NCBI GenBank assembly: GCA_030390025.1
Contig: CM059431.1
Span: 113,648,001 to 113,712,000, forward strand
Length of the DNA stretch: 64,000 nucleotides
Direction of reading: 5' to 3'
Source of the DNA: Squalus acanthias
Taxonomy: Eukaryota
Positions 1 through 63,164 of this stretch are shown here, piece after piece. Within the stretch, counting starts at the first letter, position 1. Each line of letters starts with the position of its first letter. The translations under genes and the position numbers were made by a program. The notes under the pieces are model-generated. The model was given only the letters and a program-made list of their open reading frames with translations. It made no database searches and was not told where the DNA came from.

Positions 1-1
1 G

Positions 2-28452: not shown

Positions 28453-29802
28453 CTACATGCAGATGCTCCTGGTTTTTCTAGCATTTTGTAAAAGGTTGAG
28501 TGGTGAATTTTCAGCTCATTGAGCTGCTTTGTTCATTTTATTTCAATCTGTATTTCACTGGGTAGCCAAATGTGCTGCCTGCTGATTTTTGATTTGATCA
28601 AAACAAGCATACGGCTGATTAAAAACCATACATAATTAGCAACTGAAAAGCAGGGCAAATGATTTCCAGCTCATGGTTCAAAGCCTTAAATAAAAAAAAG
28701 TCCAAACAAAGAAAAACTGACTGTAAAAGTAATTTGTGGCAAAACACTTGAAACATCATTGTTCCACAGAGAAAGGTCAAGGAAAGGCGACGCCCACAGA
28801 GCTCAATTTCTCTGCCAATCATTACCGGGAACTTACAATTTCTGATGGTGGTGAATAAGTACAACCAGACATTCAGTTGTCTCTTTAAGCTCAGTGCCAA
28901 TGCCAAGGCATTTTGGAAGTGGTGGATTCATAATAATTTACCACAGTTTTTTTTATCATGTCCAATGACAGACAATACATGGCAAAAGCTGATCTTATAT
29001 CCACCGCAGGAAATAATGCAAAATATCCAACTGTATGGTATTATGATTACAGCCTTGAATCCTGTCATTGGGACATATTTAAAATAAGGGATGAAAACAG
29101 ATGTTTGCTCACTGACTGCCCATCATTAACAGCCTTTTGGAATGGTTGTCATCCTGTATAAAATCCATTTGGTGAATAATTACATCTTTTAGTCCAAACA
29201 CCAGGCTGGGGGATATGACTAGGCAGTACCTCCAGTGATAAATCCTGAACCTCCCACTCTGGACAACAATGGAAAAGTCACAACCTGTAACATTCACACC
29301 GTCTACCAGGCTGCATGTGGTTAAATAGCATCCCTTATTGCGGCACAGAATCTGCATCTGCAGTGGTGCTGAAAGTGGTAGCATGTGCATATGTATTCAA
29401 ACTAACTCAAATACTTTCAGTCAATTCATCTTTTCCTGGCATCTCTTTCCATATTACCTTAACATCTTGGTCTCTGAGAACTGAGGCATAAATAAATGGT
29501 TTTTCTACAGGAGGCTGATGTGACAAATTGGGTTCCCACAGTACTTGTTGAACTCATTCCGACTTCAAATTTAATGACCAACGAATCCCACTGGATTAAC
29601 ATATGAGTGCAGAATTCGCTTTCGCAATTTTCATTTATATTATGTAAATATTTTGCTTTTCTTTTTTCTTTTATTTATTTGACCCTGAGCTTCCCTAAAA
29701 TAAGGGATCAAAACAGGTGCTTAATGCACATCATTACCAGCCTTTGGAAATGGTTGTCATCCTACATAAAGTCCACTTGGTGAATAAGTACATTGTTCAA
29801 TC

Positions 29803-30022
29803 CTGGAATTCCCTCCCAAAACCTCTCCGCCACTCGAGCTCTCTCTTCTCCTTTAAGATGCTCCTCAAAGCCTACCTCTTTGACCAAGCTTTTGGTCCCC
29901 TGTCCTAATATCTCCTTATGTGGCTCAGTGTCAAATTTTGTCTGATAATGTTCCTGTGAAGCGCCTTTGGGACTTTTTGCTACATTAAAGACGCTATATA
30001 AATGCAAATTGTTGTTGTTGTT
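29803..30022 (+). repeat. L2 3' fragment, 5'-truncated
   Basis: WNSLPKPLR..FKMLLKAYLFDQAF and (TTG)n tail. Confidence 0.88.
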
Positions 30023-30444
30023 ATTCCACTTGCGTTAGGACTCCCTGGACCATCCACCCCATTCTGGCCCAGTAGTGTTGGTCCCTGGGAGATGCACTTA
30101 AATATTGCTTTTCTCTACCCAGCCTGCATTTGTGCCTCCATCTCATACTAGGATCAGGAATTCACTGTACGGGAATTCCTAACGGCAAGCCTATGTCCTA
30201 CCATTCACGGCACGGAGTCCTTGGGCACAGCTCCACCCATTCATTTTACAGCTGTTAACCTACACAGTTTCTGTCAAAGAGCTTTCCATTCAATTGTACA
30301 TTCTTTTCATGCAATTCAGGGTGGTTTTAGCTGACTAATACGAGCAGGCAAATAGTTATTGTTTAAAATTATTGTATTTTCGTCAACTCAATTAAAATCA
30401 GAACTCGGATATAAAAGCAAAATAAGCCTAAAAGTTGAGATGAA

Positions 30445-30910
30445 GGGGACAATTTTTGTCGCGATTTCTGGGCAGGAACAGAGCACTTGCAAGCCAAAAG
30501 ATTTACCGTACTATTTACCAGTGAGTTCGTGCCAATGTCCAGCCTGCTGTAATATTGGGGCGTGGCAGGAAACAGGTGCGCAGCGCTCTCAACCTGAGCA
30601 GGCAGGGGCCAACTTGAATATGCAAATCCAGGTCCTACACTGTATGTAGGATCCTGATGAAATTTTCAAGTATCAATGGGCTGCACTGCGCGCGTTCCGT
30701 CCAATGGTACTGGACGTACAGTGGCCCAATCAGCGTTTTTTAAAGGAACCATTGCAGGCCACTCTGAAACTGGTATAAGAATGCTGTGACACTGATGTTT
30801 GTAGGCCAGGATGAACAGGAATAGTCCTCCTGGCCCCACAAATATCTTCCCACCCACTGCTGATCACTCCCTGCCATCCCCGGGATTGCGTCCTCCCCTT
30901 TGAAGGCCTA
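30445..30910 (+). repeat. Truncated Harbinger-type MITE related to 43640-44291
   Basis: GGGGACAATTTT end; CCAATGGTACTGG..TTAAAGGA block similar to 43890-43945. Confidence 0.5.
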
Positions 30911-32294
30911 CTTCAGACAAATAGCAGTCCTATGATGGTTAAATATATCCAATTAATATTATAGTGTACCTAATTGCGGGCCCCACTGGAAGAACTGGGC
31001 AGCGAGACCCTTCTTGCCCACAATGGCTGCACACCATTTTCCTGCTCTTCAATGCCTTGCAGGTGCTTATCATCCGAGTCTATAGTGAGGCGTTGTTCCG
31101 TAGTGATACTGCAACACTCGAAACACAGCTATCATTTTTCCCGACTTTTATTGAGCATCTATTTTCCTCGGTTAGCCACACAGTAAACAAATAGTGTGGA
31201 CGGCTCCGCACAACATGGTGACCAAGATCAAATGGGAGCAATACATTTTGAAGTATTGCCCTTTAAGGGACTACAAGCAGGCTCCTTGTTGTTTGAAAGT
31301 TGAAGGCTACAACAGAGGATGCTTTGGGGAGAGGCCAGGGGGAGGGTTGTGCAGACATGCTCAAGACCTTTCCCACGTTCGAGGTTTGAGACTGCAGTGT
31401 ATAGTAATGCCCAGGCCATGACACCAGATCATCTCTCTAATTGTTTTTAATTTATGCTTTGGAGGCGTCCCTGTATGCTGCGGTCTTCTGTAACCCTTTC
31501 CTTTGGCTATAGTGCTTTTAAAGGGCAGTAGGCCAGCAAGCAGTGTGTGGCTTCACTGCAGGGCAATAGAGTGTTAGTAAGGGGTGTTTCCAGGTCAGGA
31601 GACAGGTCATAGATGTCTGGACATAATCCATTGATCCTTATGACTAGAGTCTTCTTAGTTCCCGATGTGCTCCCACCTGCCATTTAGCAGTTGCTGAGGA
31701 GAAGGGAAAATGCTGGGAGCATAGATGTGATGCCAATGACCCTGAATCCCAGTTTTAGTGATTCCCAAATGCAAAAGCAGTGGAGCTCTGGAGCCAGTAC
31801 ATAGCCCTAGGCAGTTAAGACAATAAATATTTTTCTTACAAAGGCCACGAACACCCATTACAACATTCCCTGCTGTGTGTGTGTGTGTGTGGCCTTACAG
31901 TCATGTCTCTGGTCCTCCCATCATTATCTGCTCCACATATTGATTGTTGAAGGTCTGATAAAGTCACGTCAAATACTGCTCCATTTACGAGGCCATAAAT
32001 GGACCCAGAATTTCCTTGAACGGCATAACTGGCAAGTTACGCAAAGATATTTACTCCGGTTTCTATGCTAATCTCGCCAATCAGTACTTAAGCTGAAGTT
32101 TCCTGACAAGCTTATTAGCATATGCCAGATCTTTAATAACATGCACAAACCAGCGGAAATCAGCGTAATTAATCTGGGCACAAGCAAAGCTCGGAACTTG
32201 TGCAATATTCCTGCTTTAAGTACCTCTTTATGTACGAAAATTAAAACTTGAAGCCATCAAACTATCATTTATTCACATCAGGCCCTGCAGGGTT

Positions 32295-32736
32295 GAAACA
32301 TAGAAACTAGGAGCAGGAGTAGGCCATTCGGCCCATCGAGCCTGCTCCACCATTCAATACGATCATGGCTGATCATCCAAATCCGGTACCCTGTCCCTGC
32401 TTTCTCACACAGAATCCCCATCGAGACTGCACCGACACATATCCCACCCTATCCCCGTAACCCCACGTATTTAATTCCCCCTAACATATCCCTTCCTATC
32501 CTATCCCCGTAACCCCACATATTTAATCCCCCCCTAACACTAAGGGTCAATTTATCATAGCCAAATCAACCTAACCCGCACATTTTTGGACTGTGGAGGA
32601 AACCGGAGCACCCGGAGGAAACCCACGCAGACACGGGGAGAATGTGCAAACTCCACACAGACAGTCACCCGAGGCCAGATTCAAACCCGGGTCCCTGGCG
32701 CTGTGAGGCACCAGTGCTAACCACTATGCCACCGTG
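32295..32736 (-). mobile_element. HE1-like V-SINE
   Basis: Near-identical to 12441-12864. Confidence 0.92.
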
Positions 32737-33144
32737 TTTTTTGCTTTCGGCGCAATCGGGAAATTGCCCCTAAAATGCACTTGAAATTGCAGTGGTTAGG
32801 TTACAGGTCACGTTTCTGCTTAAAATCATTTGCATATTCACAAATGTAAAATTTTCCATGAATTAGCGCAATCGGCCAGCATAATAGAACGTAATTGTTT
32901 CTTTGTTTTTGCTCTCCATTAAAAAGTATTCCTTGATGTATTTAAGAGTGGTAAGCTGAGGCAGTTTCATTAATACAGCTGAAAATAGGTTTATTGTCAG
33001 AAATAAGCATTTTTAATCAGAGTGCCCAGTCCTCCACTTGTGAGTAACCTGAGTTAAAATCGCTGAAAATGACTTAAGAGAACCATACGGAACCATTTAA
33101 TAGTTTCATTGCTGTACACTGGTCCGTTTCTTAGTGGAGTAAAT

Positions 33145-34805
33145 GGCCCGGATTTTGTGGGCAGCTGTCAGCGAGGTGAATGGCGAGATTTCGCGGGCTT
33201 TTGAGCGGAGACTTGCTCTAATCCGGCATCTGACCCACCGCGGCGCCCTCTACAGGACATCTGTGGCATCTGTGAGCAGAAAAGAAACAGCAAGGCTCTT
33301 CAACCAATCAGATTGAAGAATCCTCACTGAGACACGCGGCCGGAATTTTCTTCGGGGAGGCAGGTTGGGGGTGGGGGGTCCAAGGCGTGTGGAAAACCCG
33401 GGAGGCCAGCTTTCCCACAGGCCCTGCTGCCTTTACCGGCAGGACCTAATTTGAATGTGAGGCCTCGGTTTCCCGCCCGCAGCCAGCCAGCTGGAGAGGT
33501 TGGCTGGCTATGGGCGGGTAGGCCTCAGTTGCGGTCCGGGGGAGGATCGCGGGAGGGGGTCGGCAATCCACGGGGGTGGGGTCAGGAATCGGGAGGGGGG
33601 GGAGAAAGAATTGGCGGGTGGGGGGTGTTGCAGGATCGGGGAGGTCGGGGATTGGCAGGCAAGCAGGGATCGCGGGTGGGGGAATCGGGGATCGGGGGGG
33701 GATCAGGGGTCGAAGCGTGGGTCGGCCAGGGATCGGGGGAAGTGGGGATTGCGGGGGGGGGTGGGTCGGCCAGGGATCGGGGGGGGGGGGCGGAGGATCA
33801 TGGTTGGCCTCATCATCATCGTTGGGGGGAAAGGCCTGGGAAGGGGGGTGGTTGCGGGCAGGGGAGGCCTGGGAATGAGATCGGAGGCATCTTGTGGGGG
33901 GTCTCCGATCACAGGGGGTGGATATGGTCGGGTCCCTGGATCCAGGAGGTAGGTATAAATCCACTTACCTCCTGGATGCAGCAGTCCCCGCCTCAGTTTA
34001 ACTGCCGGGTTTCACAAATTGAGTGAAACCCGTCCACAGGCAGTTAAATTCAAAATGGAAGGGGAGGAAGAGGCTTCCAGCCTCATTACAATAATTAAAT
34101 TGAGGTAATGCCTCTTGGCAGCAGGTTGGTTGTCCGCCCTCTGTCCCCCTTCCGGCAAAACCGGAAGTGGGCAGATTTGAGGCGGGATCAGGTCAGGAAT
34201 CCCATTTTTAACAATTTAACTGCCCCCACGCTCCAAAGCCACCCATTTTTTATGGGAAAATTCCGGCCGCAGAATCTAAACCAGGAAGTATAAAGCAGGA
34301 AGTATAAATTGGATTTATATCATGTACAGAAACTGAAATAAAGATTGGGAAAGACAAATGAGATTAAGAGAGATAAAATAGACAGACAGAAAAAGTTAAA
34401 AAAAATGTTATTTTAATTTTAATATTTTTTAAATCTCCAACACTAATTAAATTCTGAAGGAATGAGACTCCACACTTGTAAAATTTAATTTTCAGGGCCA
34501 GAGAGGTTGTTTGGCAGTAATTATCACTTATCACGCTGTTAAAATTCACTTACACCTGAATGCACCAGCCCTAACATTTCTGGTGTGTTTAGTGGGTAAC
34601 TAGTGGGTAAGTACTGCAACATCACGCCCTTACATGGATTTCAATGCTGAGTCTATTGGCGAGGTTCTTCTATAGCGCAGCCTGTGGAGGAGCAGGGTAA
34701 CTCAGACCGCAACTTCTGGATTTCCGCGTTTAACTGCACATGTACGTACTTATGAAGTTACTGTCCGATTTACTGCATAATAACGGTGAGCACTGACAGT
34801 CTCAA
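33145..34805 (+). mobile_element. Harbinger-type MITE family C, interrupted by family B
   Basis: GGCCCGGATTTTG end; both flanking parts homologous to 62085-62615. Confidence 0.75.
33338..34268. mobile_element. Harbinger-type MITE family B with G-rich GGGATC array
   Basis: Perfect 13-bp TIR GGCCGGAATTTTC; homologous to 46501-47414. Confidence 0.85.
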
Positions 34806-35667
34806 TGAAATGGTTCTGTATATGTTTTAAAAGTCATTTTCAGTCATGTAAAGTCGGGTTATTCACAGGTGTTTATGCTTATTTTTTGCGATAAACCCAT
34901 TTTCAGCTGTGTTAATCAAATTGCCCCTAGTTACCACTTTTAAATATTCAAGGAATTTTATTTAAGCAAAATTTTCTTTTTTTAAAAAATGATGTTTTAA
35001 AATGCTGCCCAATTGCGCTGGTTCATGGCAGATTTTGCATTTGGCAAAATGCAAATGAGTTTGAGCAGAAACTTGAGAAAAAAAAATACTTTTCAAAATG
35101 GGCGCAAATTTGGGCGCAACTTGCGCCCGTTTTGCTAATTGCGCCCGACTCTACCCCCAGAATTCCTGCCACGCCTAAAGATTTGGACGAAAATTAACAG
35201 CCCATTCAGAATGCAGGAAACTAGCATTCTCTGTACTTTTGCATGGAGGCGGGGCTATGTTAATGAGCGGCAGAGGATTTTGGCGGAGGTTTCGCTGAAT
35301 TGGCACAAATGATGGAGAAAATGCGACATAGTATCAAAACCGGCGAAAACATGCAAACTTACTTGATCTTTTGCCCTGATAATCAGCATTACGCTGTCCT
35401 TACGTTATTGTTTAGGTGCAAGTTATCAGGAACTTCCAGACCTTCCTGCATAACAGCATTAATTAGGATCTAACACAGTGGCTTTCTCGGCCGTATAACT
35501 TACAAAGCAAATTATAGATGGAGTCAGAAACAACAGCAATAGCCGTAGACAATTAATTAGCTCACAATGCGACAAATCACTTTTAACCTAAATATTCTAC
35601 TAGTAACAGTCAACAAATACATACATTGGCCCATCAGGACTCCCAGTTTCTGATCAGCCATTCACCG

Positions 35668-35828
35668 TTAGATATATTTCTTAAGGCTAAGGGGATCAAG
35701 GGATATGGGGAGAAAGTAGGGACAGGGTACTGAATTTGGATGATCAGCCATGATCGCATTGAATGGCGGAGCAGGCTCGAGGGGCCGAATGGCCTACTCC
35801 TGCTCCTATCTTCTATGTTTCTATGTTT
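35668..35828 (+). repeat. Young CR1 3' end, severely 5'-truncated
   Basis: FLKAKGIKGYGEK, 3' UTR matching the HE1 tails, (TTCTATGT)n. Confidence 0.9.
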
Positions 35829-36861
35829 CAAACAAAGTAACACTGCAACCCTAATCCCATGCTAAGCCCATACATTTGCCCACGCAAACACAAACCCTTC
35901 TATATGCCTGCAGTCAGTACTTGGATTAAATACTGTGTGATATCATGTGGGGCTGTATCTCGAAATTGAGAGCGATTTTACCTGACCACTCCCTTTAGTC
36001 AGTCATCATTTGGGGTTCAAGTAGGGCTTTCTTGTTACTTTCTATTGATCTACTTCATTATTGGAAAAGACAGGAAGGCCTATTATACCATCACATTGGG
36101 AAATGTCACCAATCAGACCAGTCATTAGTTCCTTATGTAAATATGCCTGTGCTGTAAAACACTTCACACACTTGGCATTACCAATTACTGAGTCATCAAA
36201 GGCATGAAATGTAAGCTTACTCAAATTAAATATTTTACATTTATTTTTACAGCTGCAGAGGATTTTAAACTGATCAAAACCCAAGAACGGAAACAAAATC
36301 TGATTAATGCTGGAAACACTCAGCAGATCAGGCAACATCTGTGGAGAGATCAGATGAGTTAACACTTTCAGTGTTGTCGTTTTGTTAATAGAATGGTCGA
36401 CTTTTTCATCTTTGTCCGACCACAAATTAAGAATGGTAGCTGTTAGTTGTGGTGTGGATCTCTCCATACATTGGCCCATCAGGACTCCCAGTTTCTGATC
36501 AGCCATTCACCGAAATCTCCCGACGTGTTCTTGTGCAGCTTTAGCTATTTTGCTGCAAGCTTTTCCAGTATACTGTCACAAGCTAAACGCGGACAGGAAG
36601 CATTGCATTTGTGGTGCTTCCGAGCTAGTATTGACATTTAATTTATGCTGGAGAGCCGGTCTTCAGGAAATTATTCAGCCCCTGTCAGTGTTCACATCTG
36701 TCAAGAACGAATTGGCCCCAACCAGCAAAGGAAGGGGAAGGTCTTCTTCAGTCCAATGGGGTCATTGTCAACGAAGACAAGATTAAAGGATGACTACTGA
36801 ACTGGGAGATAATGACTTGTTTTTCCCCCCCATTTATTAATGCAAGTTTTTGAATTGATTT

Positions 36862-37960
36862 AAAACAAAAGCCAAATACTGCGGATGCTGGAAATCTACA
36901 ATAAAAACAGAAAATGCTGGAAATACTCAGCAGGTCAGGCAGCGTCTGTGGAGAGAGAAACAGAGTTAACAGGCTGGATTTTACCAACCTCGGCGGTACC
37001 GTGGCGGGTGACGTCGGTGGCGGGTCCCGACCCCGCTGCTGGCTCCAGCCTGCTGTCCAAAATGATTTCCCCTGATTGGGCTTGTTAAGCCCCGCCCACT
37101 GCATTTGCCGGCCAATTGAAGGAAGTGGGTCTGATGACGTCATTTGATGACGCGTCATCAGTCGGTTTCCTTAAAGGGACCATGCACAAATTTACTTTGA
37201 CAGTTGTGCTGTCAGTGTTCTACAGCATTGAGGTGCTGCAAACACTGACAAGCACTGCACAGAGGTGCACGGCTGCACCCAAGGCTCTCCCATGACTCCC
37301 TCCATATGCTTATGGAGGGAGTCACAGCACGTAGGGAGGTTCTCTTCTCTTCCAATGGCGGAAGAAACCCCCCCAGGAGATCAACGCAGCCTGGTTGCAC
37401 ATTGCACAGGGAGACACAAGCATGGATGTCATAAGGAGGACCAGACTGCAGTGGTGCAAACCTTTCGATGATCTCAGTAGATCACGAAATGCTACTGCAA
37501 AGCCACACTCAACCTCACCCTGCTGTGCCACTCATCGCATCCCCATCACTCTGCCTTCCCTACCCTACTCCTGCACATCCTTACTCACACCAACTTACCT
37601 TGCACCTCCACCCATCCCTCTCTCTCTATCTACATTATCACTTCCCCATCTCACTAGCCACCCCTCATATTCACCCTCATCCTAGTCCAATCATACCAAC
37701 TAACAACACACAAGGGTAGGCTGACCCTCTGAAAAATTCCCCCAACATTTCAGGTCGATGACCTTTCATTAGAACTAGAAAAAGTTAGAGATGTAACAGA
37801 TTTTAAGCAGGTGCAGAGGCAGGGAAAGGGGGAGGGGAGGTCTGTGATATGGTGGAAGACAGGAGTGATTAAATGACAAAAGAGATGATGGTGCAAGGCA
37901 AAAGGAGATGGTAAAGTAAAGAAACAAAAGATGAGTCAAGAAGAGGTGTAAATGGGAATG
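36862..37960 (-). repeat. Penelope-derived terminal repeat interrupted by a MITE
   Basis: Homologous to the arms of 46278-47768; carries a mutated hammerhead. Confidence 0.8.
36971..37743 (+). mobile_element. Non-autonomous Harbinger derivative with Myb exon 1 relic
   Basis: AGGCTGGATTTT...AAAATTCCCCC ends, 3-bp TSD AAC; RLSHDSLHMLMEGVTARREVLF...KPFDDL. Confidence 0.85.
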
Positions 37961-39210
37961 AATTAATTTATTGTTTGGAGTCAATAATGTGAACATTTCA
38001 GGGAAACTTGGGCTATCAAAAACAGGAGAAATGTTTGTTTTTCACCAACATTTATGGCCCTTCATCAAAATCATGGGAACATGGGACTTAGAGATCTTCT
38101 ATTACTAAGAATGTGAATTTGTTTGCAGGAATAAACTAAAAAAAAAAGCCAATCACAAAGGACCTGTAATAATGAGTCAAGCAGCTAATAGACTGCATGA
38201 TCTGTCTAAATGTTGAAAAGTTTGTTAATCTAGCTGTGGAGATGGCAAAAATTAATGAGAAATGGATCAACAACTGATAGGACAATCCCTTTTTATGGAT
38301 CAGGCATAGCAGATTCTGGTCACTGCTGGATTAGAGGAACTTGACCAGATCTTTGGTTGAGAGGCTGCTATCTCCATGATTCAGATGATCTGGCAGTAGG
38401 TCTATAAAAAGTAGAATGACTTAAAAAAAGAACTCAAAACGAACATGAAGAGTGCTCTAAAGTAACAATACAGGGCATGCACAGACATGAAGCAAATTAA
38501 AGTTGGTAAATGTTCAGGCAAAACAAAAGCCATACACATCGACAGAAACAGGAGGATGGAGAGATTAAAGAAAGAGGGAGAGAAAAACCAGAGGAAAAAG
38601 ATTAGCAAATAGAGCTATAAATATGACCCTGAGAGAATGTGCATGAGGGACAAACAGAAGGAAAGGAGAATAACAGACATAATGGCCGAAATGTTTACAT
38701 TGAAGAGGGTGCGGGTTCACGAGCTGGTCAGCAGTTAAAAATGCTGAAATTGACAGCGCCTCGGGAACTCGCCTTCATCCCGCCAACTTCCGCCTTTAAC
38801 TCGGGCGCATTTCCCAGCACACCACGGACCCGCTCGGGAGAGCCGGGCAACCTCATTGAAGTATTTAACAGCTCATTGACAAACCCTTAAGAGGATTTTT
38901 AACCTGAGATTTTTAACCACGGACTTCCTGAACCTTGCCTGTGAAGGCAAGGTGAGAGCTCAGCGGCCATTGTGCGAATTCATTAATTGACAGCTGGAAA
39001 AAGCACATAAATACTCACACATTACACCTGCTTCCTTATCTAAGGGAAAGGCTCTTGCTGACACCATCTTGTGCAGAAATTTAGCTTTCAGGAGCTTGCA
39101 GGTAATTTCTGCAACCTCAGAAACCACTCTCACCACATTGCTAGTCACTATAACTACATTGAAGGATTGTGCCTCTGAGCTTCACTTTACCTGCCATCTA
39201 TCAGATCAGC

Positions 39211-40667
39211 ATGGGTGCCACTTATACTCTTTCACCTTGGACCTCAGATTTGGACCAAGATGAGCCCCAGCACCAACAACACCAGCAGCAGCCACAACAC
39301 CAGCAGCAACCTTCCCCTCACTGACCTGATGCTCCACAGGAGGGGGATCAGCTCAGGGGTGCACTTCACCGGAGGCAAGACCCCAACACAGGTTACTTGA
39401 CGGAACAGCAGTGCTTCAGGAGGCTCAGGCTATCGCGCCAGGTCATGGCAGACATTGTAGCTTGCTGGAAGAAGACCTGCTGCCCAAAGGACCTGGTGGA
39501 CACGCCTTACCAGTGGCTGCCAAAGTCACTACCGCCCTCAACTTCTTCACCTCAGGCTCCTTCCAAGGATCTGCAGTGGACATTTGCAGGATCTCGCAGT
39601 CGGCCGTCCACAAATGCATCACCCAGGTGACCGATGCCATGTTTCACAATTCAGGCACTTAAGTGCACGTTGCCACTGTGTTAGTGAGCGGGCGCCCGGC
39701 TTTGTGGCTCTGGATGGCTTCCCACAGGTGCAGGGCGTCATTGACTGCACACATGTGGCCATCAAAGCACCCCCAGATCACCCAGGAGTGCTCATGAACT
39801 GGAAGGGCTTCCACTCCTTCAATGTGCAGCTCGTCTGCAACCACAAAAAGATCATTATGCATGTGTGTGCAGATTCCCAGGGAGCTGTCATGACTCTTTC
39901 GCCTTGTGCCAATCCACCCTCCTTCAGGAGTGAAATTAGGAAACACTTCTACACACAAAGGGTGGTACAAGTTTGGAACTCGTTTCCGCAAACGGCAATT
40001 GGTGCTAGATCAATTATTCATTTTAAATGGGAGATTGATAGCTTTCTGTTAACCAAAGGTATTAAGGGATATGGGCCAAAGGCAGGTATATGGAGTTAGG
40101 TCGCAGATCAGCCATGGTCTCATTGAATGGCGGAGCAGGCTCGAGGGGCTGAATGGCCTACTCCTGTTCATATGTTCCTATGCTCCCATGTTCCTATGTT
40201 CCTCAGCTCTTCGCACCTCTGAACAGACTTACCGGCTGACTGCTTGTAGACAAAGGCTATCCACTGAAGACGTGGTTGATGACGCCCTTGAGGAGGCCAA
40301 GTAATGAGGCCGAGGAGCGCTATAATGAAAGCCACATGATGACCAGATGTGTAATAGAGCAAGCGATCGATATGCTGAAGATGCACTTCAGATGCCTTCA
40401 CAGATCTGGAGGAGCCCTTCAGTACGCACCAGCCAGGGTCTCCAGAATGATCATCATATGCTGCGCGCTGCACAGCACAGCACAACAGCGAGGATTGGAG
40501 CTGCAGGAGGAGCAAGGTGCAGAGCCTCTTCGGAGGAGGAAGAGCAGGTGGAACATGAGGAGGAGGAGGAGGAAGAGGAGGAGCCTGAGGTGGACATGGC
40601 ACCAGCAGTGGTGCACATTGCTGCTCAGGAGGTCCGGGATGGCCTCATAATGGCACAATTTAGTTAA
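39211..40667 (+). pseudogene. HARBI1-like DDE transposase, disrupted by CR1
   Basis: [76 protein letters not shown]. Confidence 0.9.
39923..40200 (+). repeat. CR1 3' fragment
   Basis: RSEIRKHFYTQRVVQVWNSFP..GIKGYG; (TTCCTATG)n tail. Confidence 0.9.
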
Positions 40668-40952
40668 GTTGCACCAGTGCACCCATCTGGCTCCCAGATG
40701 CTGTACCTACTTCCCCCCGCCCCCACAACAACACCACAAAGCAGTCCTAAAATGATGAAACCATTCCTGTCACACACACACCCATTGCTCGAGGTTAAGT
40801 AATGTCTCCAACTGACAAGGCCACTGCCCAGGTAGTAGGAAAAAATGGACAAGACGGGAAAGTGGTGCAAAGAAATAAATTTATGTGGGTCATAAAAAGA
40901 ACTGAATATTAACATTAACATTTTAGCAAACCCTCGTGCATCTACGATTGTG

Positions 40953-42750
40953 TCATTTTCTTCTGCGAGTACTTCTACGAGGTGCACCCACTGTGGCTTC
41001 AGCAGAGGTAGAGGCAGGCTGCTCATTTCCCTGCTGCGACTGCTTAGAAACTTTTGGCGGACATCCTCTGGGTTTTGGAGCCTGTGAGGGTCCCGCCAAA
41101 GACTGCTCCTGCTGCAATTGTGCCGGGACAGACTGAGGCAGTGTGTGGGGCTCAGACTGAGGGGAAGGCAACGGGGGAGAAGTGGGAGCGTTTTGAGCAG
41201 AGGCTCCACTTCCATGTCCCCTCTCACCATCATCCCTCTCATTGGCCACCCGCATTTCCCTGATAGCAAGGAGCTGGAGACCACCTTGCTGCACATTAGT
41301 GGGGCGATGAACGCCCAAGTCTACTTTGGTATCCCTCCTAGAAATGACTGCAAACAGAGTCTGTAAGCTGTTGTTCACAGCAAGCATGGACTCGTATGAC
41401 TGGCGCATTAACTGCTCCATGCAGGTGGCCATCCTTTCCATGGAAGAGCACATCGTCGCCATCGCCTGCGACATGGTGCTGCTCATGTTGGAGATGGACT
41501 CCTTCATTCTCCCTACAATTGCACACATCCCGGCTGGAAAAGCTGCCAGAGGCTCGCACATTTGTTGCTGCTCCTCCAAGATCAACCTCTTTGTCGATGG
41601 CCCCTGAGGTTCAGCATCTGCATGCAGCTGAGCAGATCTTGGAGTGTCCTGCGCCCTCCGGCGAGGACTCTCCACTGCTGTCTCTGTCTCCACCATCTGC
41701 TCTTGCTCACTTGTGATGTGTGAGACACCAGGTGACAACATCACTCTATGTCTCGCAGGACCCACCGAGGTGCGCGTGTCTGCGCTGGTGCTGGGTGCGC
41801 ATGGGTCTGGTGACGGTGCACTCGCAGAGAATGGAGCTTCATCTGAGGAGTCATCTTTCTCCTCCGGCTGGACAGTGGGGGGGGGCGGGGGTGGGGGGGC
41901 ACTTGATGGACCTGTGGGAGAGTAAAGACATGAATTAGAATTCTTATGATAAGAATGTTTAATGTTACCATTATGCACATCATGATATTTCACTGGCTGC
42001 TGACATCAAGTCACCATGAGTGACTGTTGTATGCCATGTGGCTGTATGAGATTTAATTCTGTCACCGGGTTGCTGGTAGGACCCCGTCTCCATCTCCCAC
42101 CGTCAGCAGCTCTGGAACTCCGCTTATTTCCAGTGCCTCCTCCTCTGCTGGCGTCAATGTACTGTAAATTGGAGGGCCACCTCCGGTTCTCCGTCTCGCT
42201 CTGTTGTTCTGAGGTCTCTTCTCCTGCAAGGAGGGAAAGAAGAGAACTTTGAGTGAGAGTGATGGAATGAGTGTAGGGGATGGATGGGCTACATCTGTAG
42301 AGGGTGACTATGAGGGATTGATGTGACATTGCCAAATGGTCTCCTTCTGTGGTGTTACTTCCTATGATTGCATTTGGATGAGGGTAAGTGTCAGTGGTGG
42401 ATAGTCAGATGGGAATGTGTGAGTAGGTGCATAGAGAGTGAGGGATGGGTGCACCTGCAAGGTAGGTTGGTGTGAGGAGTGATGTGCAGGAGTAGGCTTG
42501 GGAAGGCAGAATGATGGGGTTGGGGTGACAGGCACGTCAGGATGTAGTTGACTGTGGCAATGTACTCACCTTTCTTGACCTCATGAGGTCATTAAATCTC
42601 TTCCTACACTGCATCCAGGAACGGCTGACAACACCCCTGCTGCTCACTTCGTGGGCGATCTGCAGCCATGCCCTCTTTGTTTCATTGACTGGCCTCTTCC
42701 TGTTGTCACCAGGGAAGAGGACCTCCTTCCTTGCTCTCACTCCCTGGAGC
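40953..42750 (-). pseudogene. Harbinger Myb/SANT gene, 3 exons (~42750-42570, 42223-42066, 41911-40953)
   Basis: RKEVLFP...AWLQIA...WMQCRKRFNDL; RRRTGGGP motif; exon 3 fully open (~319 codons). The 5' end is lost at a LINE-tail insertion (~42760-42825). Confidence 0.88.
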
Positions 42751-43639
42751 AGGATTTCCAGGGCAACTAGGGATGGGCAATAAATGCTGGTCTTGCCAGT
42801 GACGCCCACATCCCATGAACGAATCACTGAGACTGCATCCTTGGCTATAAATGCTTGTACCCTCACAGTTAAAGTATTGGATATAACAGCGACAGGCACC
42901 TCTCACTACCACCTCAGACCCTCCAACAACAACCTTTAACTCTGCTGTATACAGTGAGTCATCCGTGATGTCATCAGACCCGCTCCAGTTAATCGGCCGG
43001 CAAATCCGCATGCCTCCGTCATTTGATCTAGTTAAGTTAAACACACAGTGGAGAGTGTGCTGATGGAAAGTTCGTGATGGCGACCTGCTAGGCGCCCCTC
43101 TGCTCCTGAAGCCACTCACAGGTAAAAATTCAGCCCAGAATTAGTGAGAGATAAAAAAGAGAGTTAAGGGAAGAGAGAAACTTCTTATTTGTCTATGATC
43201 CATGGAAGGTCAATGATTCTATTTTAAAAAGTAAAAGACTAAAAACAAACTTCAATAAAGGATAGGAATTAGTAAAGAAAATCAAATGGGTGTCTTTTTA
43301 ATTGAACTATCCTTGTTCCTGGTAAACAGCTAAATCCAGTCACTGGTGAATGATTCTGAAATGTATTAGTTTAATAAAACTCCATCTACATCAATTTACC
43401 AACTATTACTGTGGTAGATATACCTTTAGAATAAGTATTTTATTTGTTCTCACTATATACAGTATCAAATGGGTAGACATCTTGGACCCTTATAAATTTT
43501 CTCACAGGATTGTCGTTGATCTGATGGGTTGGTTTTAGGCTTTTTAAGGCAGTTTCTGCCCATTCTCGAGAGATGACTAAGACATGTAGTTGAAAACAAC
43601 TCTGATTGCTGATTAGCTCAAAGTGGGTTAAAATACAAT

Positions 43640-44291
43640 GGGGCCGATTTTCATGGCCTCTGCTGGTAGGAACAGGGCTGTGAAAATGGCTGCATTGAAC
43701 TTATCACCCTGTTCCCACTCCCACTCTACCCGCCATCATTGCCAACCCATCAGTAAAATAGGCAGCCAGAGCATCCGCCTGTTTCAGGAACAAGCCTACT
43801 TGTACCATGCAACTAGGGGTCTTACGACCTTCGTGAGACCCCGGTGCAATTTCAGGTACTGATGGGTGGAGCTTGTGCCACGCATGCTCTGCCCATTGGT
43901 ACTGGGCATGGGGCAGTCCAACCAGCGGTCCTTAAAAGGACTGCCACTGGCCATTCACAAAACACGGTGAAACATCTGCGGCACTGATTTTTGTGGGCCA
44001 AGCTGGCCCCCCCCAAAAAATTTTCCTGCCCATTGCCAGCCCGTTCACAACACCGCCCCCCCCCCACCCCACCCCCCACTCGAGATTGCCTCCCCTCTCC
44101 CTTTAATTCCGCCGAGAAATCACAGATTCCTCTCCCCCACCCCCCGCCCCCGCCATCAGCAAGCTGGTTCAGCGCTCGTAACTGATAACATGCAGATAAT
44201 GTCCGGCCATCAAAATGGCTCAGGCCTCCCGTGCAGACGTTGGGCGAACGGTGTGATCACCTGAAGTCCATCCAAAACGAAAATCGGCCTC
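43640..44291. mobile_element. Harbinger-type MITE
   Basis: TIR GRGGCCGATTTTC; 3-bp TSD AAT. Confidence 0.8.
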
Positions 44292-44989
44292 AATATTTCA
44301 AAGTGGGAATTGATGTGAACTCAATAACCTCCATCACGTCCAGAAAAATGACTTGATGGCCATCTGTTTTGAATGTAACTGAGTTTCCTGTTACTTATCC
44401 CCAGTATTCAAACACTCTCTCAATGGTGTACTGTTTCTTATATCATACTGGGCATTAGGTGCCATTAATCAATCAATACTACTAGAGAAGCTGAAACATA
44501 GTGCTTTAATACAATTTTATTTGCACAAATTAAGTCACATATGGGTTTAATTTCTTCTGATATTTAGGGTAGCATATATTTGTGTTTTGTACCAGGCTTC
44601 GAAATTGCTCTGAGAAGCAAACAGATTTGAAGCATATTAGCAATTGACCCTGCATTAGCAGGTATTTTTGCTTGTTAAACAGAAGTTAATGAGAAATATA
44701 TCAATTTACTTAGGATCTACTTGATTTATTCGATTAACGCAGCATATTAAATGTAAACTCTTGTAAAAGCACTGGAGGATGCAGGCAGACTTTTGAGGAG
44801 TGAATAAAATGAAAGCTAGTTTATGAAACTATTCAAAAAAGAGTCTTTCGTTGAACATAGCATGGATGTAGCCTCAAGGGTCGTTCTGGTTCATGGGAAG
44901 ATGAGAGGTAGAAATATCGGAAGGACGTGACCTGGACCGTAATAAGGTATGGTGTAAAAGGAAGCTGTACGTCAGGAAGGGCACAGTCT

Positions 44990-45650
44990 CAGACCTGTGC
45001 TTAGTTCCTGGAAACAGATGTACAGATGTACAGACAAGAAGCAACATCCGTATGACACCCTCAGTGGAAGTGGAATTGAAAATGGCTACCACATTTAGGG
45101 GGCTAAATTCGGTTGATTTGCACCTCCCGTTTGTGCCCTAAGAGGGCGCTAACGGGGCGCTAATCAACAAGAGCCTGGGCGCAGCGCCGCTAACACCTGC
45201 TGCGAGTGGGAGGTTAGCGTTAGCGCCGCGCAGTGCTTCGCCGCTGGCGATGACGTCATCATCGTGCGCAGCGCCCCGCTCGCGCCCCGGCTGTAATATT
45301 GGGTGACGCCCCCTGAATTACCGCCGGACGCTATGTCCGCCGGGGTCAGGGGAGCCTACCTGCGGCCGGGGCGGCGCTAGTTAAAGAGGAGGTGGCGGGT
45401 GGCCATTTTTGTTGCTGGCCGCCTGCCAGCACCTGCCCCCGTTGCTGTCACCGGCCTCCGTGAAGCCCCCCCGCGGGGTGCCGGCTGCTCTCCGTGAGCC
45501 CAGCACTCCTCCCAAAGGGGGCGCTACCCAATTTTTACCCCTTAACTTCTAGATCATAAGACTTCTCAGACACTACCAGGAGACGTAACTTTGATCAGCC
45601 TCTACGCAGTTCACTGCTGCACCACAGAAATAACAGGTACCATCTTTCAC
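44990..45650 (+). pseudogene. Ancient HARBI1-like nuclease relic split by a MITE
   Basis: With the MITE removed it reads QTRSNIRMTPSVEVELKMATTFNF*..SQTLPGDVTLISLYAVHCCTTEIT, aligning to VAVKVTMAFNF..FQTAAGDI..ISQFxVHCC. Confidence 0.55.
45098..45541. mobile_element. Harbinger (Tourist-like) MITE, CpG-rich
   Basis: TIR GGGGGCTAAATTCGGT / ACCCAATTTTTACCCC; canonical TTA TSD; repeated GGCGCTA motifs. Confidence 0.88.
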
Positions 45651-46277
45651 CTTCCTCCAACTACTACCTGCGTCCTTCATCAGAGCAATGACTCGCCCTA
45701 CGTTCACTTGCCAAACTGCTAATGCCCTCCAAGCTCTGGGTATGTGGACTGAAGTCTGCTTCAAGTGATGCGGGTGTCGCAATTTTCTGAGGTGAGTGTG
45801 ATCCTGCCATAGAACCTGATTCCTCCTCCTGGGCTTGTGGTCTCTCTATATGATGCAGGACAAGCATATGGACTTTTTTATGCATACCGTTATTTCAATG
45901 ACATTTTGTGGGGTGAGGCTTCCAGCCACTCTGAGGGTTGAAAAGCATTGCAGGGAGTGGAATGAGACCTTTTCTAAGCTGAGGCCTAATATCATCCTTT
46001 TTCTGCTGTTATGTTTTCACTCAGTCACTCATTTCAGCACACCACCATGACACAAAGTATACAGTCACTTTTATACTGTTTGAAGAAGTAAAGTATATTC
46101 CTTTTATTTCCACAGTTGATCTCCAAGGACCACAACTTGCCATATATAAATCACAGAAAGTTAACATGCAGATACAGCAAGCAATTAGAAAGGCAAATGG
46201 TATGTTAGCCTTTATTGCAGGGGTTGAAGTATAAGAATATAGGAGAGATTAAGTAGAATGAGCCTATATTCTCTGGA

Positions 46278-47768
46278 ATAAAAACAGAAAATGCTGAAAA
46301 TACTCAGCAGGTCAGGCAGCATCTATGGAGAGAGAAACTTCGTTAACGCTTCAGGTCAATGACACTTCGTCATAACTAGAAACAGTTAGAGATGTAACAG
46401 ATTTTAAGCAAGTGCAGGGGCAGGGAAAGGGAGGAGGGGAGGAAAGAACAAAAGGGAAGGTCTGTGATACGGTGGAAGGCAGGAGAGATTAAATAACAAA
46501 GGCCGGAATATTTTCCAGGTAGGTGGGTTGGGGTTGGGGGCCTCTGAGGTGGGCAGGAAACCCCGGAGGCAGGGCCTGATTTGCATGTGAGGCATCGGTT
46601 TCCCACCCGAAGCCAGTCAGATTGAGAGGCTGGCTGGCTGCGGGCGGGTGGGCCTGCAGATGCAGAGAGGCAGCGAGGGGTCGGTCCGGGGAGTGATCGC
46701 GGGGGGGCTCGGCAGGGGATCGCGGGGTGGGGGCAGGATCGGGGATCGGGAGGGGTTCGGGAATCGCGGTGGGGTGGCGGAGGATTGGCGGGTGGGGCGA
46801 CCGGGGATCAGGGATTGGAGTCGGCCAGGGATCAGTAGGGGATCGGGGGGGAGGGTCGGCGGGTCGGGGGAGGAGGCCGGAGCATTGGCAGGGCAGGGAG
46901 AGAGGATCAGGGCCACCGGAGAATTGTGACTGGCCTCAGCATCATCGGTGGGGTGTGGGGGGGGGGAGAGGCCTCATGGTGGGGATCGGAGGCTTGGGAG
47001 GGTGATCGGAGGCCTCGTGGGGGGGACTCCGATCGCGGGGGGGTGGGTATGTTCAGGACCCTGGATCCAGGAGGTAGGCATAAAGCCACTTACCTCCTGG
47101 ATGCAGCAGTCCCCGCCTCTGTTTAAGTGCCAGATTTCACGAATTGTGTGAAACCCGTCCACATGCGGTTAAATTCAAAATGGACGGGGAAAAAAGAGGC
47201 TTCCAGCCTTATTATAATATTTAAATTGATGTTCCGCCCCCTGGGAGCAGGTTGGTCGTCACCCATCCCCCCACCCCCCCTCCCCCAGTCCCGCCTCCGT
47301 TAAAACGAGACGTGGGCGGGTTGGAGGCGGGATCAGGTCGGGAATCTGATTTTTAACAATTTAACTGCCTCCACGCTCCAAACCCACCTGTATTTTTAGG
47401 GGTAAATTCCGGCCAAAAGGCATGATAGTACAAAACAAAAGGAGATGGTAATGGAAGAAATTACCTTTATCATCTCCTTTTGTTTTGTTCTATCATACCT
47501 TTTGTCATTTAATCACTCCTGCCTTCCACCCTCTCACAGACCTTCCCTTTTGTTCTGTCCTCCCCTCCTCCCTTTTCCTGCCCCTGCACTTGCTTAAAAT
47601 CTGTTACATCTCTAACTTTTTCCAGTTCTGATGAAAGTTCATCGACCTGACCTGAGCTAACGAAGCGTTAACCCTGTTTCGCTCTCCACAGATGCTGCCT
47701 GACCTGCTGAGTATTTCCAGCATTTTCTGTTTTTATTTCAGATTTCCAGCATCCGCAGTATTTTGCTT
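46278..47768. mobile_element. Penelope-derived inverted pLTR (hairpin) element
   Basis: Long inverted arms meeting at ~47460; 14-bp TSD CTATATTCTCTGGA; hammerhead-like motifs in both arms. Confidence 0.85.
46501..47414. mobile_element. Harbinger-type MITE family B with G-rich array
   Basis: TIR GGCCGGAAT; 3-bp TSD AAA; removing it restores the host repeat. Confidence 0.88.
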
Positions 47769-48165
47769 CTATATTCTCTGGAGTTTAGAAGAATGAGAGG
47801 TGATCTCATTGAAACGTATCTCTGGCATGTAGTCCCAGCAGAAAGAACAAAACACAAGATAAGTTCTTCTCACAACACAGTATGGGTTTGGCACGGTACA
47901 CTAACTCAGGTGAACTCCTGTGTGACTTTTTTTCTCATTCTATTGATGGACAATAATTGATGGGCAAAATGTGAAAGTATTTTGGTCACCCAGAAAATGC
48001 TATTTTTGTAATTGTGGTAACTCCTTATACACCGAAAAAAATTATAAAATTAACTCAGCCGTACTTCACATTTCAAAAATGTAGAATTTTGCAATACTGC
48101 TTTGGGGGGTGAAGTACAATGGTTTTCAATGCAATTAAAATGAATAATATATCAAAAAGAATGAT

Positions 48166-49644
48166 GGGCCTGAATTTGCGGTTGGCAGCGTAGTTAAGGA
48201 GTACGCTGCCGACATCGCAAGGAAATCCACACCTACCTTGTGCGATCCTCCCTGTGAGAACTTCCTTTCAAACGCTGCAGAGTTCCGCGCAGCGTACTCC
48301 CCCACGGAGCCCGGGAGCGTACCGTTGTGCGTATGCGAACCTGGGATCACGTGGGGCAGTGCTCCTTTTACTTCCTGTTTCTTAGCCTACAAGCCACAGC
48401 TGAGCCCTTAAGCGCGAAATGACAAGAGGAGGGATTCACTCATATAGGATAAGAACGGAAATGAAACCACGAGATAACTGGAAGATTATTAATATTGAAG
48501 GCGTGTTCCTTTTCTTTTTCTACTTTCATTTTTTGCATGGAAAGCCTCGCTTTATAAAATAACAGGAACAAAAGATAAAACAAATATTTTAAATTCCATC
48601 CTAATTTGAAGAGTTCTAAATTTTCATACCTCAATTGCATTTAATTCCATTCATATTTAAGACAGTTTTGAAAACGAATTTGAGCCCGGATCTTTAAAAG
48701 CTGACCCATTGCAAAGGGGTCCCTAAATGGATTGAATGGTAATCATAGATCATAGATCATAGGATCATAGAAGATAGGAGCAAGAGTAGGCCATTCGGCC
48801 CCTCTAGCCTGCTCCGACATTCAATGCGATCATGGCTGATCATCCAAATTCAGTACCCTGTCCCTGCTTTCTCCCCATATCCCTTGATCCCTTTAGCCTT
48901 AAGAAATATATCCAACTCCTTCTTGAATCTATTTAATGAATTGGCCTCTACTGCCTCTGTGGCAGAGAATTCCACAGGTTCACCACTCTCTGGGTGAAGA
49001 AATTCCTCCTCATTTCTGTCCTAAATGGCTTACCCCTTATCCTTAGACTGTGACCACTGGTTCTGGACTCCCCGATCATCGGGAACATCCTTCCTGCATC
49101 TAGTGCAAAAACCTATAACTGTTTCAGGGTTAAAAGAGCAAAATTTGCATGATTGACCCAAAGGAAACAGCCGAACCTTTCAGATTACAGTTGATAAAAC
49201 AAACCTAAGAGCTTCAGAGATTCAGAGACAACCCGAAACCATATCTGTGCCATTTTTGGCATTTTAAAAATTAAAAGGAACATATCCTGCTGTGCATTTC
49301 CAATATTTCCTGTTCTTTTTTAATGCAAGATTTCCAGCACTCTGTTCTAAAAAAGTTTGTTCCGGTCCCCTTACGCTGTGCAACAGGCTTCCTGCACAAG
49401 ACTTAAAACGTAATTAATTAGGAGTAGCTGGGCAATTAGCCCAACTTTTCGCCAGCACGTTGATTCCTATCAGGAGGTGAAAGACGCAGCGAAGACCCTG
49501 TATTCGTAACTTGACAGATCGTACGTTCGGGATTTAGCACTTGCGCAAGCTCATGTGGAAATCCCGAACTTGCGGTCAGTTTCAAAGGCGGTATGACGAC
49601 ATACTCTGACAGTTCGCCGTCATACCGACCGCAAATTCAGGGCC
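48166..49644. mobile_element. Harbinger-type non-autonomous element
   Basis: 17-bp TIR GGSCCTGAATTTGCGGT; flanks GAT/GAC. Confidence 0.75.
48745..49105 (-). repeat. Young CR1 3' end, 5'-truncated
   Basis: Same subfamily as 35668-35828; (TATGATC)n-type tail. Confidence 0.9.
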
Positions 49645-49861
49645 GACATCTGTTAACTGTATTCAGTTCACATATGCTATCATTTCTCTTAAAAAATACT
49701 GTGTGCACATTTTGCTCTTTTAACCCTGAAACAGTTATAGGTTTTTGTGGAAGTTGTAAAGAAATGTGTAGAGATGTTCTAAATCTATTTCGTTGGCTTG
49801 AAATTAATAGAAAGACCCTATAGCCAATTGCTGATAATAGGTTTCTGAGGCTCTTGAAGAT

Positions 49862-51251: not shown

Positions 51252-51285
51252 TTTGTGTCCATAAATTGGGATAGATTTTGCCCAC

Positions 51286-51515
51286 CTGAAATAAAGACAG
51301 AAAATGTTGGAAACACTCAGCAGGTCCGCAGCATCTGAGGAGAGAGGAAGGTAGGGTTAAGTTTCAGGTTGATGATCATTCATCAGATGAGCTTTCATCT
51401 CTCTACAGATGCTGCCTGACCTGCTGAATGTTTCCAGCATTTTCTGTTTTTATTTCAGGTTTCCAGCATTTTCTGTTTTTATTTCAGATTTCCAGCATCT
51501 GCAGTATTTGTTTTA
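51286..51515. repeat. Penelope-derived hairpin
   Basis: Inverted arms, a minus-strand hammerhead-like motif, and a 28-bp tandem duplication. Confidence 0.78.
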
Positions 51516-61575: not shown

Positions 61576-62084
61576 AAATAACAAAAAATAAAGATTTTCA
61601 CTGTGTTTTCCAATTGGTTGCAGGGCTGCAAGCCAAATTAAGCATTGGAGGACTCTGCTTTTAACTCAACTGGTCTGTCATCTGGGATGATCTACTGGCT
61701 CAGGGACCAGAAAATGTGCTGGGCTCTCGGGACATGTCATTCTGGTGCTCTTCGCTCCAGCATTCCTCTCACTCCTGCCACTTGGTAGCTGCTTCACCAA
61801 TGTGAACATGGCATAATTATAGGTGTGTCTTGATTGGCTGCTAACAGTAGTGAATTTGCTAATGATTCAAAACGGCTCTGGATCACCATTTTAATTTGTA
61901 TCTGCTAAATTACTGAAAAAAAAGTGGAACAACTTTTCTTCCAAAATATAGTCATATATGTGAGTTGCTGTGCACAAATGACAGCATCAAACGGTTAATA
62001 TGAAAGAGAACACTGCCACCTATCCACAGATTGTGGGAACTTCACTTTGGAAAAAATACGAAAAAAAGAAACTGTTTTTGCATT

Positions 62085-62974: not shown

Positions 62975-63072
62975 CTAGAATCATAGAATCCTACAGCACA
63001 GAAGGAGGCCATTCGGCCCATTATGCCTGTGCCAGGTTTTTGAAAGAGCTGTCCAATTAGTCCCCCTGCTCT
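62975..63072 (-). repeat. CR1 3' tail
   Basis: (TAGAATCA)n, GGAGGCCATTCGGCCC. Confidence 0.75.
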
Positions 63073-63164
63073 AATGCTTACTTCGGCTTGCAGTCCTTGG
63101 AAAACGCAGTGAAAATGTTCTGATACATTATTTTCTTTCCAGTTGCCAATGGACAAAAAAAATT

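What the first reader, a model, noticed from the sequence alone, without database searches (positions are those of the whole stretch)
29080..49747. Recurrent capture of nearby genomic DNA at LINE 5' truncation junctions
Seen: three independent 5'-truncated LINEs (L2 at 29803, CR1 at 35668, CR1 at 49105) each abut, at the 5' junction, a 39-100 bp copy of sequence found 0.6-0.85 kb away (two direct, one inverted). These are not TSDs. Copy identity tracks element age (perfect for young CR1, diverged for L2). Inference: the nascent cDNA or target end invades local DNA and is extended before joining (template jumping or Pol theta-like repair). Extra 5' nucleotides are known for LINEs, but three cases among roughly a dozen junctions suggests a frequent pathway that creates local dispersed duplications.
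Basis: partly seen in the sequence, partly recalled or inferred. Interest (0 to 1): 0.75.

Follow-up and report, generated by a model that had tools for sequence, protein, structure and literature searches.

The report
LINE insertions carrying copied neighbouring DNA
Four cut-short jumping genes in a shark-like genome each carry, at their broken front end, a 44-100 base copy of DNA lying 0.5-1.3 kb away; this is a known by-product of how such insertions are sealed, seen here in a new host and with a fourth example.

Summary
The three duplications are real and sit within 10 bp of LINE 5' ends. Four of 5 non-TIR, non-SINE local duplications abut a 5' junction, against 0.011 expected per duplication. 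The best explanation is templated extra DNA made while the 5' end was joined. This is described for zebrafish L2 (PMC4245944, PMC4760211), human L1 (bioRxiv 2024.12.14.628481) and R2 (PMC11371274). One result against: a same-species contig joins across case 2 with a single copy of the 48-mer. That is an assembly-graph artefact, a later deletion, or a long TSD, so 'not TSDs' is unproven for case 2. No empty allele was seen. All four copies share one template strand (chance 1/8), which hints at RNA or replication-fork templating, but no host gene was found. The scan noted one similar case in another genome (e1-7812105, unchecked).

The parts
29080..29185 (+). Case 1 presumed source; about 510 bp upstream of the insertion site
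   Evidence: no other match of like strength in the window
29696..29793 (+). Case 1 junction copy, direct, 85 of 106 columns; followed by 9 unmatched nt (29794-29802)
29803..30022 (+). 5'-truncated L2-type LINE 3' end with (TTG)n tail; weak 4-bp TSD candidate at 29691-29694 and 30024-30027 (chance about 4%)
   Evidence: aligns to the long RT-bearing copy at 6237-7728; TSD test; clade name recalled
35612..35617 (+). Case 2 left copy of a 6-bp TSD candidate; right copy at 35831-35836
   Evidence: chance about 0.4%
35620..35667 (+). Case 2 junction copy, direct, 48 of 48; 1-bp overlap with CR1
35668..35829 (+). 5'-truncated young CR1 3' end with 8-bp repeat tail
   Evidence: 95% like 48758-48916 over 159 bp; tail-to-flank junction held by same-species contig 18, 35806-36335
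36465..36512 (+). Case 2 presumed source, 634 bp into the element's 3' flank; low copy; itself flanked by a 5-bp repeat (chance about 1%)
   Evidence: inside an unbranched same-species contig of depth 4.65
48166..49644 (.). Mid-copy element with about 20-bp terminal inverted repeats that hosts the case 3 CR1
   Evidence: 18 of 20 TIR match; several to dozens of contigs per site
48747..49105 (-). 5'-truncated young CR1 (case 3); 3-bp TSD candidate at 48744-48746 and 49148-49150 (weak, chance 13% or more)
49106..49149 (-). Case 3 junction copy, inverted, 43 of 44; 2-bp overlap with the flank and TSD
49704..49747 (+). Case 3 presumed source, 556 bp into the 5' flank; also present in two related organisms
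   Evidence: spanned by X23 record 8 and X24 record 16
61591..61650 (+). Case 4 presumed source (new), 1,325 bp into the element's 3' flank; directly follows the tail of another old LINE
62976..63072 (-). 5'-truncated older CR1-type 3' end (case 4, new)
   Evidence: about 80-82% like 13504-13572 and 54841-54911
63069..63119 (-). Case 4 junction copy (new), inverted, 45 matches in 60 columns with one 9-bp gap; 3-bp overlap with the CR1 end
   Evidence: (E 3e-7)

Best explanation
Each copy is templated extra DNA made during the insertion itself. Target-primed reverse transcription stops early and leaves two free 3' ends at the 5' junction: the cDNA end and the target end. One of them anneals through 0-3 bp to DNA of the same locus 0.5-1.3 kb away, either by folding back on its own strand (inverted copy) or by pairing with the opposite strand (direct copy). 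It is extended 44-100 nt, released, and joined to the other end with 0-9 nt of filler. The likeliest agent is host alternative end joining (Pol theta-like) on resected or opened DNA; the LINE reverse transcriptase acting on DNA is the alternative. Shown: the duplications, their abutment to 5' ends, the overlaps and fillers, and matching ages. Inferred: copy direction, simultaneity with insertion, which end primed (target end in case 3, cDNA end in case 4, from the side that bears the overlap), and the enzyme.
For: 4 of 5 local duplications abut 5' junctions, against 0.011 chance each. Held-out case 4 gives P=0.017. Copy divergence follows element divergence in all four. TSD-like repeats lie outside the copy in case 2 (6 bp, about 0.4%), case 1 (4 bp, about 4%) and case 3 (3 bp, weak). 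The case 2 and 3 sources are low-copy, and the case 3 source exists in two related organisms. Precedent: ZfL2-2 extras derive from flanking sequence (PMC4245944; PMC4760211); extras of 43 and 158 nt with 6-bp TSDs are listed in Table S3; L1 inverted duplications are primed by 2-bp homology on the reciprocal end (bioRxiv 2024.12.14.628481 section 9); R2 snap-back junctions copy nearby DNA (PMC11371274).
Against: No empty allele was observed; 9,906 joints were hidden under repeat noise. Same-species contig 17 joins 35619 to 36465 with one 48-mer. The case 2 source is also flanked by a 5-bp repeat (about 1%), so direction is not settled there. Cases 1 and 2 have no overlap on the flank side and only 0-1 bp on the element side. 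The 5' versus 3' contrast alone is not significant (p=0.33), and the case 4 source abuts another LINE's 3' tail. The L1 inverted duplications are described as small hairpins, whereas case 3 needs a loop of about 556 nt.
Confidence: 0.7

Rival explanations
1. The template was RNA or strand-biased single-stranded DNA. The reverse transcriptase jumped from LINE RNA onto a nascent plus-strand transcript of the target locus, or onto one exposed strand at a replication fork, before joining.
For: Read in each element's sense direction, all four extras equal the window plus strand of their source, although two elements are + and two are -. Two-sided chance is 0.125. R2 'extra template' junctions copy a second RNA (PMC11331408).
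Against: Four cases only. No host exon was identified: 0 of 30 candidate exons had a Pfam hit at the curated cut-off, and the best candidate, 27820-27912, found no credible relative. There is no TA or GC skew in 18,843 non-repeat bases (p=0.16 and 0.45). The flank-side overlap in case 3 favours priming by the target end.
Confidence: 0.12
2. Case 2 differs from the others. The 48-mer is a long target-site duplication around a 797-bp insert (CR1 end plus 634 bp of donor flank), so the single-copy join is the ancestral allele.
For: X3 contig 17 (816 nt, depth 4.65) runs 35238-35619 straight into 36465-36890 and has its own variants (5 substitutions, 8 gap letters). The insert's left end is the CR1 truncation point. 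Long TSDs and small tandem duplications are reported for L1 (passage).
Against: The insert ends without any tail. The 6-bp repeat ties 35617 to 35831 (about 0.4%), and a degenerate 14-bp repeat spans the site (about 3%). Logan contigs hold each 31-mer only once and are simplified by SPAdes-like rules (PMC12424806), so a 48-bp repeat must collapse. Short links into high-copy CR1 and SINE nodes (at most about 159 k-mers on the SINE side) are the kind such rules remove (rule details recalled). A later deletion between the two copies would give the same join.
Confidence: 0.1
3. The LINE pieces and the local copies are both patches at pre-existing breaks (endonuclease-independent capture during templated end joining), or the LINE landed later beside an older duplication.
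For: One of the 5 local duplications (11167-11237 and 11604-11674) has no LINE junction, so local templated copies also arise without LINEs. TSD evidence is weak in cases 1, 3 and 4.
Against: All four elements keep intact 3' tails, and the copy is at the 5' end each time. Later landing exactly at a copy's edge has chance 0.011 per duplication.
Confidence: 0.06
4. Chance, interspersed repeats or misassembly.
For: The window was selected for the pattern, and the perfect 48-mer junctions were not shown in independent contigs.
Against: Self-window E-values are 1e-14 to 1e-21 for cases 1-3. Cases 1, 3 and 4 have diverged copies, which assembly error would not give. The case 2 and 3 sources are low-copy.
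Confidence: 0.02

Closest known systems
Flank-derived 5' extra nucleotides of zebrafish L2-clade LINEs ZfL2-1 and ZfL2-2 ('annealing' 5'-joining pathway; PMC4245944, PMC4760211, PMC2666801; Kajikawa 2012 known to me only as cited there)
   Same: 5'-truncated L2/CR1-type inserts with short TSDs, 1-2 bp microhomology, and extra DNA traced to flanks; extras of 43 and 158 nt are on record; about 40-50% of endogenous ZfL2-2 copies carry extras of some length.
   Different: Here the host is shark-like, three of four elements are CR1-type, and the sources lie 0.5-1.3 kb away on either side and in either orientation. I could not read the 2012 paper, so I cannot say whether these distances are new.
L1 insertions with local inversion or inverted duplication at the reciprocal end (bioRxiv 10.1101/2024.12.14.628481, section 9)
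   Same: Self-annealing of the target 3' end through 2-bp homology primes synthesis, and the TSD-like overlap is kept. This matches case 3.
   Different: Somatic human L1 in cell clones and tumours; small hairpins are described for the duplications; the direct copies (cases 1, 2) are not covered in that section.
R2 'snap-back' 5' junctions (PMC11371274, PMC11331408)
   Same: The cDNA 3' end primes DNA synthesis on a nearby strand before joining. This matches case 4.
   Different: Site-specific R2 protein in engineered human cells; mostly copies the cDNA itself, less often nearby rDNA, and the class is low in frequency.
Templated insertions of polymerase theta-mediated end joining (recalled; search listing only)
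   Same: Direct and inverted copies of break-flanking DNA from either side, short microhomologies, filler bases.
   Different: From memory these are usually shorter and closer to the break.

Membership tests
Flank-templated 5' extra nucleotides of LINE inserts | Element is a 5'-truncated LINE with an intact 3' tail | tested here: met
   Alignments to longer in-window copies with RT domains; tails visible
Flank-templated 5' extra nucleotides of LINE inserts | Extra DNA lies directly at the 5' junction and matches local flanking sequence | tested here: met
   0-9 nt from the junction in 4 of 4; sources 510-1,325 bp away
Flank-templated 5' extra nucleotides of LINE inserts | Short TSD encloses extra DNA plus element | tested here: inconclusive
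   Case 2: 6 bp, about 0.4%. Case 1: 4 bp, about 4%. Case 3: 3 bp, 13% or more. Case 4 not tested.
Flank-templated 5' extra nucleotides of LINE inserts | Empty pre-insertion site lacks both element and extra DNA | tested here: inconclusive
   One search covered cases 2 and 3 only; no such join was listed, 9,906 joints were hidden, and one contig shows a different skip in case 2
Flank-templated 5' extra nucleotides of LINE inserts | Source is not a common interspersed repeat | tested here: inconclusive
   Low copy for cases 2 and 3; cases 1 and 4 checked only within the window
Long target-site duplication (case 2) | Direct repeat flanks the whole insert, and the empty allele has one copy | tested here: inconclusive
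   Geometry fits and a single-copy contig exists, but an artefact or later deletion explains it equally; the insert has no 3' tail
Twin-priming 5' inversion | Inverted segment is element-derived | tested here: not met
   The inverted segments in cases 3 and 4 match host flank, not the long CR1 or its paralogues
Polymerase theta-mediated templated insertion | Loss of the product when POLQ is absent | not testable with these tools
   Needs a cell assay
Reverse-transcriptase switch to local RNA | Source is transcribed, and the copied strand is the transcript's sense strand | tested here: inconclusive
   Strand concordant in 4 of 4 (chance 0.125); no host gene or skew found; no RNA run was searched

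The most novel reading that the evidence does not exclude
In sharks, a sizeable share (over 10%) of CR1/L2 insertions copy 40-100 nt from up to 1.3 kb away with a fixed strand rule, because the template is the nascent transcript of the target locus or one strand of a replication fork. The direct repeats so made later let the LINE and its flank be deleted, which would be the single-copy allele seen for case 2.
Probability: 0.12. Interest if true: 0.7.

Novelty: new member of a known kind. Interest (0 to 1): 0.33.

Why it matters
How the 5' end of a LINE is joined is still open (PMC4760211). If these are templated extras, a repeat-rich genome that keeps them readable offers many natural events. 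Their distance, orientation, side of microhomology and strand can separate cDNA priming from target priming, and DNA from RNA templates. The events also make short local duplications that can seed later deletions. As it stands, this is four examples of a described product in a new host.

Tried and rejected
No whole genome is held, so the genome-wide test was not run. A 24-nt CR1 tail motif found 0 loci in metagenome, viral and genome contigs, so no further junctions could be collected. Laying 4 of 24 listed runs on 35200-50000 was swamped by repeat paralogues; absence of cover or joints proves nothing. In organisms J and K, contigs of equal depth end at about 35383 and 36898; I could not interpret this. 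The 28-bp inverted pair 16914/17281 and the pairs 32808-35076 look like transposon TIRs and were dropped, as were three SINE-SINE pairs. Case 1 as a miniature LTR element was rejected: no TG start and no TSD around the repeat pair (by eye). The host-gene search was empty. The two hits are repeat proteins scored over five weak stretches. One search used 13 scored 3' junctions by miscount; the right number is 14. PMC12016303, PMC2912911 and PMC3415434 passages gave nothing on flank-templated extras beyond frequencies. PMID 22405943 and PMC1716264 are not held.
Full report
Setting. The window is repeat-rich vertebrate DNA with CR1-type and L2-type LINEs, tRNA-type SINEs and DDE transposons. RT domains were found at 56309-57913 and 6934-7728, and a DDE_Tnp_4 domain at 40240-40647 (3 of 5 proteins scanned). 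The clade names CR1 and L2 and the label 'shark-like' rest on recalled tail motifs and on unchecked scan notes for this genome. No whole genome is held.

The observation. All three pairs are present as described. Case 1: 29696-29793 matches 29080-29185 in 85 of 106 columns, then 9 unmatched bases precede the L2 start at 29803. Case 2: 35620-35667 equals 36465-36512 in 48 of 48 and runs into the CR1 with a 1-bp overlap; the source is on the element's 3' side. Case 3: 49106-49149 is the reverse complement of 49704-49747 in 43 of 44, beside the 5' end of a minus-strand CR1. Paralogues continue with other sequence beyond each junction, so these are truncation points.

A fourth case. I listed 16 5' junctions and 15 3' junctions from self-alignments and by eye, and scored the 60 bp outside each against 2 kb either side. 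One junction of each kind was masked out. Four of 15 5' junctions scored 48 or more (70, 94, 83, 48), and so did 1 of 14 3' junctions. The fourth hit is new: 63069-63119, at the 5' end of an older minus-strand CR1 fragment, is an inverted copy of 61591-61650 (45 matches in 60 columns, one 9-bp gap, 3-bp overlap with the CR1 end). Its partner is the single 3' hit, because the source follows another LINE's tail, so its direction is inferred.

Chance. Of 11 local pairs within 2.5 kb I dropped 3 TIR pairs and 3 SINE-SINE pairs. Four of the remaining 5 abut a 5' junction within 10 bp, against 0.011 per duplication by permutation. That figure is inflated by selection of the window. The 5' versus 3' contrast alone is not significant (p=0.33). 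The association is real, but the rate is uncertain: 4 of 15 overall and 1 of 12 held out (95% interval 0.2-38%).

Anatomy. Sources lie 510, 634, 556 and 1,325 bp from the insertion sites, and the four cases cover all four classes: upstream-direct, downstream-direct, upstream-inverted and downstream-inverted. Overlaps are 2 bp on the flank side in case 3, 3 bp on the element side in case 4, 1 bp on the element side in case 2, and none in case 1. TSD-like repeats outside the copies are 6 bp in case 2 (chance about 0.4%), 4 bp in case 1 (about 4%) and 3 bp in case 3 (13% or more). Copy identity (100, 98, 80 and 75% of columns) follows element identity to paralogues (95, 95, 84-85 and 80-82%). That fits copies made at the time of insertion.

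Outside data. Twenty-four runs were listed: 5 of the same organism and 3 of two close relatives. I laid 4 of them on 35200-50000. The case 3 source is spanned by contigs of both relatives, and the case 2 and 3 sources are low-copy, which counts against 'common repeat'. No empty site was visible; 9,906 joints were hidden. Against my reading, contig 17 of the same-species run joins 35238-35619 directly to 36465-36890, with one 48-mer and without the CR1 and 634 bp of flank. Contig 18 of the same run holds the CR1 tail and that flank at normal depth. Three readings fit. (a) An artefact: Logan contigs hold each 31-mer once and are simplified by SPAdes-like rules (PMC12424806 passages), and both links of the repeat lead into high-copy repeats. 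(b) A later deletion between the copies. (c) A 48-bp TSD around a 797-bp insert. I favour (a), then (b), because the 6-bp repeat and a degenerate 14-bp repeat tie the left flank to the 3' flank and the insert has no tail. A 5-bp repeat around the presumed source (about 1%) keeps the direction open.

Mechanism. Most likely (0.7), one of the two 3' ends at the unfinished 5' junction primed briefly on DNA of the same locus, was extended 44-100 nt, and was joined. The side of the overlap suggests the target end in case 3 and the cDNA end in case 4; this is inference from 2-3 bp. The enzyme cannot be read from sequence. One unexplained feature: in element sense, all four extras read as the plus strand of their source (chance 0.125). 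That would fit a nascent plus-strand transcript or a fork-strand bias. I found no host gene: 38 candidate exons, of which 30 were scanned with none reaching a Pfam cut-off. The best candidate gave nothing credible, and there is no strand skew. No RNA run was searched.

What is known. PMC4245944 (passages, section 10, and part 1 of 2 of Table S3) states that a large share of ZfL2-2 5' extras derive from flanks. By my count, 15 of 33 ZfL2-1 inserts in wild-type DT40 cells have extras, and 2 of 33 are 39 nt or longer (43 and 158 nt); the part of the table I saw gives no origin for them. PMC4760211 (parts 1 and 2 of 4) says flanking genomic or LINE DNA is the template. PMC2666801 (passages) gives about 40% extras in zebrafish. 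The L1 preprint 10.1101/2024.12.14.628481 (passages and section 9) shows inverted duplications primed by 2-bp homology; its supplements were not seen and may give sizes. PMC11371274 and PMC11331408 (passages) describe R2 snap-back junctions. The key 2012 paper and Ichiyanagi 2007 were not held. My searches listed no shark or CR1 survey of this feature, but the library lacks most subscription papers.

Verdict. A real, non-random feature and a new member of a known kind. Interest 0.33. The bolder reading, with a strand rule and later deletion through the new repeats, has probability about 0.12 and would deserve 0.7.

Noticed in passing
   Followed up: yes
window 35238-35619 joined to 36465-36890 (run X3, record 17): Same-species contig with one copy of the 48-mer, skipping the CR1 and 634 bp; a real allele or a graph artefact.
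   Followed up: partly
window 28849-28863 and 29778-29792: Exact 15-bp match to the end of the case 1 copy, including a base where the main source differs; a second template or chance (E 0.17).
   Followed up: partly
window 11167-11237 and 11604-11674: 71-bp, 90% direct local duplication inside a DDE-transposon-derived region, with no LINE junction.
   Followed up: partly
window 16914-17281: 368-bp element with perfect 28-bp terminal inverted repeats and TA ends; looks like a young MITE.
   Followed up: no
window 27818-27912: Exon-like open stretch on + with a good donor and weak acceptor; no relative found.
   Followed up: yes
window 49756: Two related organisms carry 12 extra bases here, 9 bp from the case 3 source edge.
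   Followed up: no
window 35333-35383 and 36841-36898: In both related organisms, contigs of identical depth end to the right at about 35383 and 36898; possibly one contig across an inversion, or coincidence.
   Followed up: no
window 55945-57975: 2-kb CR1 fragment with an open 535-aa RT frame (56309-57913) reaching the stop and tail.
   Followed up: partly
window 1-1760: RT-like and GIY-YIG-like frames resembling a Penelope-type element (recalled motif; no Pfam hit for 640-1353).
   Followed up: no
window 39921-40201 and 42757-42824: LINE 3' fragments nested inside a minus-strand DDE (Harbinger-like, recalled) transposon copy.
   Followed up: no
window 51430-51498: 29-bp tandem duplication (2.4 copies, 97%) inside a SINE, next to an inverted SINE copy at 51284-51460.
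   Followed up: no
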